From the NCBI RefSeq assembly GCF_044324875.1, contig NZ_CP172185.1: a stretch of DNA of 64,000 nt, one strand, 5' to 3'. This DNA is from Escherichia coli. Its GTDB lineage: Bacteria > Pseudomonadota > Gammaproteobacteria > Enterobacterales > Enterobacteriaceae. The position numbers and the translations under genes were made by a program. The number at the start of each line of letters is the position of its first letter. Position 1 is the stretch's first letter. Below are positions 61,600 through 63,203 of the stretch, in pieces. Under the pieces are notes generated by a model. That model did no database searches. It saw only the letters and a program-made list of their open reading frames with translations, and was not told the DNA's origin.

Positions 61600-61745
61600 G
61601 GCGAAGATTGATTTAAGTATTTTCAGGTCGGATGCGGCGTAAACGCATTATTCGGCCTACGGTTCGGGTACAGATTTGTAGGCATGATAAGACGCGTCAG
61701 CGTCGCATCAGGCATCAGCGCACAAATGCCGGATGCGGCGTAAAC
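61600..61745. repeat. REP/BIME cluster; its last palindromic unit carries the IS insertion
   Basis: ggtcggatgcggcgtaaacgc..., tgtaggcatgataagacgcg..., gccggatgcggcgtaaac. Confidence 0.8.
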
Positions 61746-61777
61746 TGAACTGAACCCCAAAACCTGGACAGTTTCAG

Positions 61778-62500
61778 TTAACCGGCTTTTTGATGCTCAG
61801 TCCGGTATTCTACCGGACTGAGTCCCCCAAGACTGAGTTTTATTCTTTTTTGATTCCAGTAAGTTATGTATTCGTTAACGGCATTTTCCAGCTCTTCTAC
61901 ATTTCTGTAGTCCCGGCGATAGTACATTTCTTCTTTCAGGTGACCAAAGAAGTTCTCCATTACCGCATTATCAAGGCAGTTGCCCTTGCGCGACATGCTC
62001 TGCACTAACCCTCTGTCCGCCAGGGCGGACTGATAACTTTTTATCCGGTAATGCCATCCTTGATCACTGTGGAGCAGCGGTTTCTCCCCTTCAGCAAGGC
62101 TTTCCAGCCCCTTATTTAACATCCGCTTCACCAGCTCCTCTGTAGGCCTGCAGGCCGTTTCCCACGCCACGATTTCCCCGTTAAACAAATCAAGTATCGG
62201 GGACAGGTACAGTTTTTGTCCGCCAGCCCTGAATTCGGTGATATCTGTCACCCATTTCTCACAGGGAGCTTCCGCTTTGAACTGCCGCTGAAGGATATTT
62301 TCTGCAGCGAGTCCCATATTTCCCCGGTAAGACCGGTATTTCTTCAGGCGCACAGGAGACTTCAGGCCGAGCTGTTGCATCAGTTTTCGCACCGTTTTGC
62401 CACTGAACTTAAGACCTCTTTTCTGAAGCTCACAATGGATCCGCCGGTACCCATAACATCCCCGGTGTTCATGGAAGATGGAGGCTATGAGCTGTTTCAC
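61778..62500 (-). CDS. IS3-family transposase OrfB (DDE catalytic domain), expressed as OrfAB by -1 frameshift
   Basis: DDE integrase-core motifs (WVTDITEF, LHSDQGWHY, NAVMENFFGHLK). Confidence 0.75.
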   Translation of the reverse strand: MKQLIASIFHEHRGCYGYRRIHCELQKRGLKFSGKTVRKLMQQLGLKSPVRLKKYRSYRGNMGLAAENILQRQFKAEAPCEKWVTDITEFRAGGQKLYLSPILDLFNGEIVAWETACRPTEELVKRMLNKGLESLAEGEKPLLHSDQGWHYRIKSYQSALADRGLVQSMSRKGNCLDNAVMENFFGHLKEEMYYRRDYRNVEELENAVNEYITYWNQKRIKLSLGGLSPVEYRTEHQKAG

Positions 62501-62604
62501 ATCAGCATACTTGTCCTTAGCCTTCTGCAGTGACAGCTGGTAGTACAGCGTGCTTCTGGCCAGCCCTGCAGCCTTTAACAGGTCAGACTGGCAGTGTCCG
62601 CACC

Positions 62605-63135
62605 TCAGGCTCCGGATGACTTTCGTTTTTTCTCCAGCTCCTGGCGCTTTTTTTCCAGGAGATGCTCCTGCATGGCTTTCAGATATGCATTTTCTGCGCG
62701 AAGATAACGCAGCTCATTCTTCATCTCTTCCGGCGTCATGTTTGCCTCGTTTTCATGGGTATCATCAGAACGGGTCATGCTTTTCTCCTTCCAGCGCCTG
62801 ATAAAGGCCTCATTACCAGATTTGCGGTAGCCTTTTATCCAGTTTTTAACCGTGTTGTGGCTGGGAATGTTAAACCGGGCAGCTACCCGGGGTAGAGACT
62901 CAGAATGCCCGAGAGCATAAAGAACCACGCAAAGTTTATCTTCAGGAGAATAGCTACGCTTGTGTCTGCAATCCAGTGCCCGAGGACCGTGAAGAAGAAA
63001 AAGATTAATCCAGTGTGAGAGGCTGGTGTGAGAAAGTTGAAAGAGTTTTGCCGTAGAAATGATGCCTGCATGACCGGCCAGGTAGTGATTTACAGCGGCA
63101 AGTTTTACTTCAAATGAATGTTTCATAAACTGCAC
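62605..63135 (-). CDS. IS3-family transposase OrfA (HTH)
   Basis: 176-aa ORF ending at the GGAAAAAAAG frameshift window. Confidence 0.7.
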   Translation of the reverse strand: MQFMKHSFEVKLAAVNHYLAGHAGIISTAKLFQLSHTSLSHWINLFLLHGPRALDCRHKRSYSPEDKLCVVLYALGHSESLPRVAARFNIPSHNTVKNWIKGYRKSGNEAFIRRWKEKSMTRSDDTHENEANMTPEEMKNELRYLRAENAYLKAMQEHLLEKKRQELEKKRKSSGA

Positions 63136-63203
63136 CTTCAGATGTCAGATTATGTCCAACATTTGGGGTGCAGTTCAAACGCCTTATCCGGCCTACGCCA
63201 GAC

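What the first reader, a model, noticed from the sequence alone, without database searches (positions are those of the whole stretch)
61729..63200. IS3-family element of exactly 1432 bp inserted in the loop of a REP palindromic unit
Removing 61746..63177 plus one copy of the AAC duplication restores a canonical palindromic unit. The length, the TG...CA inverted repeats and the REP-loop target match the behaviour described for IS1397, which targets palindromic units.
Basis: partly seen in the sequence, partly recalled or inferred. Interest (0 to 1): 0.4.

Follow-up and report, generated by a model that had tools for sequence, protein, structure and literature searches.

The report
IS1397 inserted in a REP hairpin
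This is an intact copy of the known E. coli insertion sequence IS1397, sitting where IS1397 is known to land: the centre of a repetitive extragenic palindrome, here between the genes yafJ and gmhA. It is an ordinary, already described feature.

Summary
Both the observation and the interpretation hold. Window 61746..63177 is a 1432-bp element with TG...CA ends, 25-nt terminal inverted repeats (21/25 complementary) and a 3-bp AAC duplication (61743-61745 and 63178-63180).

It is 99.9% identical over its full length to copies that RefSeq annotates as "IS3-like element IS1397 family transposase". Its 449-aa OrfAB is identical to the protein encoded at the loci annotated WP_106361772.1. The ORFs are intact: orfA, an in-frame A_AAA_AAG -1 slippery site, and orfB with an rve domain and D295/D355/E391.

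Removing the element plus one AAC gives an 800-nt sequence found 100% identical and uninterrupted in at least 30 complete E. coli genomes, including strain 042. The restored site, TGCCGGATGCGGCGTAAACGCCTTATCCGGCCTAC, equals the published E. coli REP consensus and folds as a hairpin. The duplication lies at its apex.

Of 15 other distinct IS1397 sites sampled, 14 lie at the centre of a palindromic unit with 3-4-bp duplications.

None of 5,426 complete genomes carries this exact insertion. The closest relatives have the empty site, so the insertion is strain-specific. Already known; low interest.

The parts
61627..61660 (+). First palindromic unit (PU) of the yafJ-gmhA BIME. Y-type, intact, slightly degenerate.
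   Evidence: Pattern match GTCGGATGCGGCGTAAACGCATTATTCGGC; direct repeat of the split unit's left arm (D1/D4).
61677..61716 (-). Second palindromic unit (Z2-type, opposite orientation), intact.
   Evidence: Pattern match GCCTGATGCGACGCTGACGCGTCTTATCATGC on the - strand at 61682-61713; part of a sub-threshold Rfam naRNA4 hit at 61681-61755.
61728..61745 (+). Left half of the split Y-type palindromic unit (GCCGGATGCGGCGTAAAC). Its last three bases, 61743-61745, are copy 1 of the AAC target duplication.
   Evidence: pairs with 63179-63192 as an inverted repeat across the element (I4).
61746..63177 (-). IS1397, complete, 1432 bp. The transposase genes read on the - strand.
   Evidence: 99.9% identity over 1432/1432 bases to annotated IS1397 copies. 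One synonymous difference (63076 G) from the commonest sequence among the sampled copies.
61746..61770 (+). Terminal inverted repeat at the orfB-distal end (right IR in transposase orientation). Starts with TG.
   Evidence: I1.
63153..63177 (+). Terminal inverted repeat at the orfA-proximal end (left IR in transposase orientation). Ends with CA.
   Evidence: I1.
62605..63126 (-). orfA, 173 aa, a helix-turn-helix DNA-binding protein. The ATG is at 63126.
   Evidence: Pfam HTH_28 (2.2e-17) and HTH_Tnp_1. The start agrees with the RefSeq CDS of homologous copies, 1349 nt joined.
62647..62653 (-). Slippery heptamer A_AAA_AAG in the orfA reading frame: the site of the programmed -1 frameshift.
Evidence: its first A is the third base of an orfA codon.
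61778..63126 (-). orfAB, the 449-aa fused transposase made by the -1 frameshift. Its orfB part carries the rve (DDE) domain with D295, D355 and E391. The stop codon is 61778-61780.
   Evidence: Pfam rve (1.2e-21), rve_2, HTH_21; NCBIfam NF033516 at 385 bits.
63178..63197 (+). Right half of the split palindromic unit (AACGCCTTATCCGGCCTACG). Bases 63178-63180 are copy 2 of the AAC duplication.
   Evidence: (I4).
60796..61563 (-). yafJ (class II glutamine amidotransferase), the neighbouring gene. Its ATG lies 182 bases from the IS end at 61746.
   Evidence: ORF; gene name and 768-nt length from homologous annotated loci.
63204..63782 (-). gmhA/lpcA (D-sedoheptulose 7-phosphate isomerase), the neighbouring gene. 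Its stop codon lies 26 bases from the IS end at 63177. It has the same orientation as the transposase genes.
   Evidence: ORF; name and 579-nt length.

Best explanation
Window 61746..63177 is an intact copy of IS1397, an IS3-family insertion sequence. It has transposed into the centre of a Y-type palindromic unit (REP): the third unit of the three-unit BIME between gmhA/lpcA and yafJ in an Escherichia coli chromosome.

Shown here: the element's identity, its intact coding capacity, the 3-bp staggered-cut footprint (AAC), the exact empty site in other strains, and the same targeting by other copies.

Inferred from established knowledge of the IS3 family:
- OrfA (helix-turn-helix) and the OrfAB fusion are made from one mRNA by a -1 ribosomal frameshift at A_AAA_AAG.
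- OrfAB is a DDE transposase that copies the element out as a circle with abutted ends, then inserts it with a 3-4-bp stagger.

Taken from the literature: the choice of the palindromic-unit centre is a property of the transposase itself (Wilde et al. 2003, as summarised in PMC1525189).

The insertion is recent and strain-specific. The nearest complete genomes carry IS1397 elsewhere but have this site empty.
For: Identity:
- 1432/1432 bases at 99.9% to copies annotated IS1397.
- OrfAB is identical to the proteins encoded at loci L002-L007, annotated WP_106361772.1, and bears that name in public sources.
- IS3 transposase model at 385 bits against a cut-off of 160. HTH and rve domains are present.

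Anatomy:
- TG...CA ends and 25-nt inverted repeats.
- In-frame A_AAA_AAG giving an uninterrupted 449-aa fusion.
- D295/D355/E391 in TDIT, HSDQG and NAVMEN contexts.

Target:
- The empty site is 100% identical over 800 nt in at least 30 genomes.
- The four closest genomes (99.4%) match the 12-kb query in a span of 10,566 bases. That is the query minus exactly 1432 + 3 bases.
- The restored unit equals the REP31 consensus, with the same insertion point as the CFT073 copy, and folds as a hairpin.

Targeting in general:
- 14 of 15 other distinct sites are at palindromic-unit centres, with 3- or 4-bp duplications. They include Y and Z2 units in both orientations.
- Eight of these sites were picked by element identity alone, and 7 of those 8 are in units.
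- PMC1525189 states that the targeting is experimentally proven and transposase-determined.
Against: Little contradicts this reading.
- The type sequence of IS1397 (ISfinder, or the original isolate) is not in any tool here. The name rests on RefSeq/PGAP naming and on the CFT073 copy described in PMC1525189.
- The primary IS1397 papers could not be read.
- One sampled copy (strain GN25, in a type VI secretion locus) is not in a palindromic unit and has no duplication, so targeting is not absolute.
- No significant RNA structure was found downstream of the slippery site (z = -0.87).
- The one promoter-like match upstream of orfA is no more than chance gives.
- Activity of this particular copy is inferred from its intactness. 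It was not shown.
Confidence: 0.96

Rival explanations
1. It is a different IS3-family element that merely resembles IS1397 (for example an ISKpn1-like or IS150-like element), and its position in a REP is coincidental.
For: The IS1397 type sequence could not be compared directly. The name comes from RefSeq annotation.
Against: It is 99.9% identical over the full length to copies so annotated. The insertion point and REP match the CFT073 IS1397 copy published in PMC1525189. Fourteen of 15 other sites of the same element lie at palindromic-unit centres, which rules out coincidence.
Confidence: 0.01
2. The insertion is an assembly artefact: a repeated IS copy wrongly placed in a repeat-rich BIME spacer by the assembler.
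For: None of 5,426 complete E. coli genomes has this exact filled site. Both IS copies and REPs are classic sources of misassembly.
Against: The junctions are base-perfect. There is a 3-bp duplication of exactly the bases at the palindrome centre, and removing the element restores a sequence 100% identical to real empty sites. A misjoin would not create a target duplication. An independent real insertion in the same spacer exists in strain NRZ14408.
Confidence: 0.02
3. It is a true IS1397 insertion but an inactive fossil that can no longer move.
For: Activity was not tested. Of 3485 genomes with any IS1397 match, only 1707 hold a match covering at least 80% of the element, so decayed copies appear to be common.
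Against: Both ends, both ORFs, the slippery site and the DDE residues are intact. The single nucleotide difference from the commonest sampled sequence is synonymous. The site is empty in the nearest relatives, which implies a recent event.
Confidence: 0.05
4. The REP half-sites are part of the mobile element itself (carried with it) rather than a split target.
For: REP-like sequence directly abuts both ends of nearly every copy examined.
Against: The flanking halves differ between copies: Y or Z2 type, either orientation, and different loop bases. The intact unit is present at the same place in strains that lack the element.
Confidence: 0.005

Closest known systems
IS1397 (IS3 family; Bachellier, Clement, Wilde, Hofnung and colleagues; E. 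coli natural isolates, e.g. CFT073 copy in PMC1525189)
   Same: Length is 1432 bp in all 19 other copies fetched. The ends, the orfA/orfB arrangement with the A_AAA_AAG frameshift and the 3-4-bp duplication all match, as does insertion at the centre of E. coli palindromic units. Nucleotide identity to annotated copies is 99.9%, and the transposase protein is identical.
   Different: Nothing in the element itself apart from one synonymous base (63076). Only the location is particular: this exact site is unoccupied in all 5,426 complete E. coli genomes searched.
ISKpn1 (IS3 family, Klebsiella pneumoniae; targets Klebsiella-type palindromic units)
   Same: The same kind of element with the same behaviour, REP-centre targeting determined by the transposase, as described in PMC1525189.
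   Different: It comes from a different host and targets a different type of palindromic unit.
IS621 (IS110 family, E. coli; also REP-targeting)
   Same: It also inserts specifically in E. coli REP sequences (PMC1525189, PMC3184786).
   Different: It belongs to an unrelated family with no DDE OrfAB and no TG...CA inverted repeats. It inserts at the 3' side of the REP, outside the palindrome, not at its centre.
RayT / TnpA-REP (REP-associated tyrosine transposase), encoded 3 kb away in this window
   Same: It is also functionally tied to REP/BIME sequences, and its gene (58361..58858) is flanked by REP arrays.
   Different: It is an HUH/Y1 enzyme thought to process or spread REPs. It is not part of an IS3-type element and is unrelated to the element in the finding.

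Membership tests
IS3 family | Length about 1.2-1.55 kb, with terminal inverted repeats that begin 5'-TG and end CA-3' | tested here: met
   1432 bp; TGAACTG...CAGTTCA; 25-nt inverted repeats 84% complementary.
IS3 family | Two consecutive, partly overlapping ORFs (orfA in frame 0, orfB in frame -1) joined by a programmed -1 frameshift at an A_AAA_AAG-type heptamer | tested here: met
   orfA is 173 aa. A_AAA_AAG lies in the correct register at 62653..62647 (- strand). The fusion gives an open 449-aa OrfAB. RefSeq homologues are annotated 'programmed frameshift'. The frameshifting itself was not observed.
IS3 family | DDE (DD(35)E) transposase with an rve integrase-core domain and an N-terminal helix-turn-helix | tested here: met
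   Pfam rve at 1.2e-21, rve_2, HTH_21, HTH_28. NF033516 IS3 family transposase at 385 bits against a cut-off of 160. D295, D355 and E391, with 35 residues between the second D and E.
IS3 family | 3-4-bp target duplication | tested here: met
   AAC on both sides, present once in the empty sites. Other copies have 3 or 4 bp.
IS3 family | Copy-out/paste-in transposition through a circular intermediate with abutted ends | not testable with these tools
   Needs outward PCR or another experiment. Inferred from family membership only.
IS1397 | Near-identity to the type sequence (ISfinder convention, from my own knowledge: at least 95% nucleotide or at least 98% amino-acid identity) | tested here: inconclusive
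   The type entry is not available. Proxies are all positive: 99.9% to copies that RefSeq names IS1397, and a protein identical to those encoded at loci annotated WP_106361772.1 and bearing that name in public sources. The divergent named copies in strains 536 and IAI39 are still 98.7-99.1% identical.
   The window copy and all 19 other copies fetched are exactly 1432 bp.
IS1397 | Specific insertion into the central part of E. coli palindromic units (REP) of BIMEs | tested here: met
   The restored site equals the REP31 consensus, with the same cut position as the published CFT073 copy. It forms a hairpin with the duplication at the apex. Fourteen of 15 other sites show the same. The experimental basis is cited in PMC1525189.
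IS1397 | Target specificity resides in the transposase | not testable with these tools
   Literature statement only (Wilde et al. 2003, via PMC1525189).

The most novel reading that the evidence does not exclude
The yafJ-gmhA BIME may be a recurrent IS1397 target: two independent insertions were seen, AAC here and GTAA in NRZ14408. This strain-specific copy splits the REP hairpin 26 bases after the gmhA stop codon and lies in the same orientation as gmhA. It might therefore change gmhA mRNA 3'-end stability (LPS heptose supply) or yafJ expression. It might also let gmhA read-through drive the transposase. None of this was tested.
Probability: 0.1. Interest if true: 0.25.

Novelty: already known. 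Interest (0 to 1): 0.08.

Why it matters
It matters little beyond correct annotation. It is a clean textbook example of a REP-targeting insertion sequence. It can serve as a strain-specific marker, because the site is empty in all 5,426 complete E. coli genomes searched. It also indicates that IS1397 has probably moved recently in this lineage. Any effect on the neighbouring genes gmhA and yafJ is speculative.

Tried and rejected
- **Primary papers.** I tried to read the primary IS1397 papers (PMC94167, PMC95333, PMC169884, PMC135288). None is held. The length of 1432 bp and the 3-4-bp duplication as published values therefore rest on memory and on what I measured in the sampled copies.
- **Filled site elsewhere.** I looked for this exact filled site in complete E. 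coli genomes, using an 800-nt left-junction query and a 12-kb query. There were none. Two related records carry an independent insertion in the same spacer.
- **Frameshift-stimulating structure.** I folded the 101 nt that start 7 nt upstream of the slippery heptamer. A hairpin appears in the MFE and centroid structures, but the energy is not better than shuffles (z = -0.87). I make no claim from it.
- **Promoter and terminator scan.** One promoter-like site (TTGAAC-18-CATAAT, 63178..63149, - strand) lies upstream of orfA, and its first base comes from the flank. The count is below the shuffle mean, so it is not evidence.
- **Rfam over the element.** No RNA family matched inside the IS. The only hit was a sub-threshold naRNA4 match on the BIME.
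- **REP halves as part of the element.** Considered and rejected, because the flanks vary and the empty sites are intact.
- **Assembly artefact.** Considered and rejected, because there is a perfect target duplication.

Full report
**1. The observation**

The sequence reads ...GCCGGATGCGGCGTAAAC | TGAACTGAACCCCAAAACCTGGACA ... TGTCCAACATTTGGGGTGCAGTTCA | AACGCCTTATCCGGCCTACG....

- The element runs from 61746 to 63177, exactly 1432 bp. It starts with TG and ends with CA.
- Its ends form a 25-nt inverted repeat that is 84% complementary (I1).
- A 16-base end motif occurs only at these two places in the 64-kb window, against 0.09 expected from shuffles.
- AAC flanks the element on both sides, at 61743-61745 and 63178-63180.
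- The 14-nt stretches just outside the element are themselves inverted repeats of each other: the two arms of a palindromic unit (I4).

**2. What the element is**

A megablast against 5,426 complete E. coli genomes found 1,707 genomes with a match covering at least 80% of the element. The best matches are 99.9% identical over 1432/1432 bases, and all are annotated "IS3-like element IS1397 family transposase".

On the minus strand the element encodes three things:
- orfA (63126..62605, 173 aa), with helix-turn-helix domains.
- A canonical A_AAA_AAG heptamer at 62653..62647, in the register needed for a -1 frameshift.
- orfB, with HTH_21, rve and rve_2 domains.

Simulating the -1 slip gives an uninterrupted 449-aa OrfAB that ends at 61778. 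This protein is identical to the proteins encoded at six fetched loci, each annotated WP_106361772.1. It carries the IS1397 name in public sources. It scores 385 bits on the NCBIfam IS3 transposase model, whose cut-off is 160.

The catalytic residues are in place: D295 (TDIT), D355 (HSDQG) and E391 (NAVMEN), with 35 residues between the second D and the E. The only nucleotide difference from the commonest sampled sequence is 63076 G for A, and it is synonymous. The copy is therefore intact.

**3. The target**

Joining the flanks after removing the element and one AAC gives 800 nt. That sequence occurs as a single 100%-identical piece in at least 30 complete genomes, among them E. coli 042. In those genomes it is annotated as the lpcA(gmhA)-yafJ spacer.

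The four closest genomes over a 12-kb query (M7424, M00057, M11957, VTB96959v; 99.4%) cover 88% of it, in a span of 10,566 bases. That equals the 12,001-base query minus 1432 + 3. M7424 carries IS1397 at up to 8 other matched places, one of which I read at trmL/cysE. The lineage therefore has the element, and this site is a later acquisition.

The restored unit is TGCCGGATGCGGCGTAAACGCCTTATCCGGCCTAC.
- It is letter for letter the E. coli "REP31" consensus printed in Additional File 13 of PMC1525189.
- The IS1397 copy of strain CFT073 shown there is inserted at the same point, GCGTG|AACGCC.
- As single-stranded DNA it folds into a hairpin of -11.3 kcal/mol (z = -3.2) with loop TAAA. The duplicated AAC is the last two loop bases plus the first base of the 3' stem.

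The spacer holds a three-unit BIME, and the IS is in the third unit:
- a Y unit at 61627-61660;
- an inverted Z2 unit at 61677-61716;
- the split Y unit.

**4. Does the element target such sites in general?**

I fetched 19 other copies. All are exactly 1432 bp.

*Picked by element identity only.* These give eight distinct sites: gudD/barA, livF/ugpB, vasI/DUF4123, parC/plsC, trmL/cysE, caiE/caiF, pepN/ssuB and ybbJ/hypothetical. Seven of the eight lie at the centre of a palindromic unit with a 3- or 4-bp duplication.

*Picked from a junction search.* This set is biased towards REP flanks. It gives seven further sites: aceK/aceA, zntA/tusA, flhA/rayT, mhpE/mhpT, yjjW/yjjV, hybG/yghU and NRZ14408 yafJ/lpcA. 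All seven are at unit centres.

Y and Z2 units are both used, in both orientations relative to the IS.

The exception is the GN25 copy in a type VI secretion locus. It has no palindrome and no duplication. It may have been rearranged, or it may be a unit-independent event.

PMC1525189 states that REP insertion by IS1397 is experimentally proven and that the transposase determines the specificity. PMC3184786 says the same of insertion in E. coli, Salmonella and Klebsiella.

**5. Mechanism**

*Shown here:*
- the identity of the element;
- intact orfA, the slippery site and orfB;
- the DDE residues;
- the 3-bp stagger footprint;
- the precise empty site;
- the site preference across copies.

*Inferred from established knowledge of the IS3 family:*
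- OrfA and OrfAB are produced from one transcript by -1 frameshifting.
- OrfAB catalyses copy-out into a circle with abutted ends, followed by paste-in.

*From the literature:* OrfAB itself recognises the palindromic unit.

I found no statistically supported frameshift-stimulating structure and no supported promoter, so I make no claim about either.

The transposase genes read in the same direction as gmhA. The gmhA stop codon is 26 bases from the IS end, and the yafJ start codon is 182 bases from the other end. Effects on these genes are possible but untested.

**6. Comparison with what is known, and novelty**

Every testable defining feature of the IS3 family is met. So is every testable feature of IS1397, except a direct comparison with the type sequence, which no tool here holds. 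The primary papers were also not available.

This is an already known element behaving as described. The one particular point is the location. No complete genome among 5,426 has this exact insertion. Two related records (NRZ14408 and LT599825) have an independent IS1397 insertion in the same spacer, with duplication GTAA instead of AAC.

**7. Verdict**

The feature is already known and of low interest (0.08).

Noticed in passing
window 58361..58858 (- strand), with 58039..58362 and 58958..59035: A 165-aa ORF that corresponds by synteny to rayT (REP-associated tyrosine transposase). On one side it is flanked by 3.2 tandem 101-bp Y+Z2 palindromic-unit pairs, and on the other by a further pair. 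Three Rfam naRNA4 hits above the gathering score fall on these units.
   Followed up: partly
window 61681..61755 (- strand): A sub-threshold Rfam naRNA4 match (35.5 bits against a gathering score of 59.5, E = 0.0006) covers the Z2 unit plus the left half of the split Y unit. The IS1397 insertion therefore cuts a naRNA4-like BIME unit.
   Followed up: no
L001 (E. coli NRZ14408, NZ_CP158426.1) 2798..4229; also NZ_LT599825.1: An independent IS1397 insertion in the same yafJ-lpcA spacer, with a 4-bp duplication GTAA instead of AAC. The spacer there holds one palindromic unit rather than three. This could mean the spacer is a recurrent target.
   Followed up: partly
L005 (E. coli GN25, NZ_CP139196.1) 1501..2932: An IS1397 copy between vasI and a DUF4123 gene of a type VI secretion locus. 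It has no flanking palindromic unit and no target duplication. The annotated DUF4123 CDS starts inside the IS end. This is either a unit-independent insertion or a later rearrangement.
   Followed up: no
window about 56284..58023 (+ strand), with lafU and dinB just upstream: An flhA-like gene that lacks its N-terminus and abuts lafU: the deletion scar of the Flag-2 lateral-flagella cluster. E. coli 042 has the whole cluster at this place.
   Followed up: partly
window 32368..32370; 13493..16131; 22158..22926; 41186..42471: Differences from strain M7424, the closest relative over window 52000-64000. The window has paoA uninterrupted where M7424 carries an ISEc31 insertion. The window also holds three segments that did not align to M7424: about 2.6 kb, 0.8 kb and 1.3 kb, the last lying next to tRNA-Thr.
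   Followed up: no
window 30944..31144 (- strand): An Rfam IS009 hit well above the gathering score (192.9 bits against 117).
   Followed up: no
E. coli genome collection: 3485 of 5426 genomes have some match to IS1397, but only 1707 have a match covering at least 80% of the element. About 1,800 genomes therefore seem to carry only fragments or relics of it.
   Followed up: no
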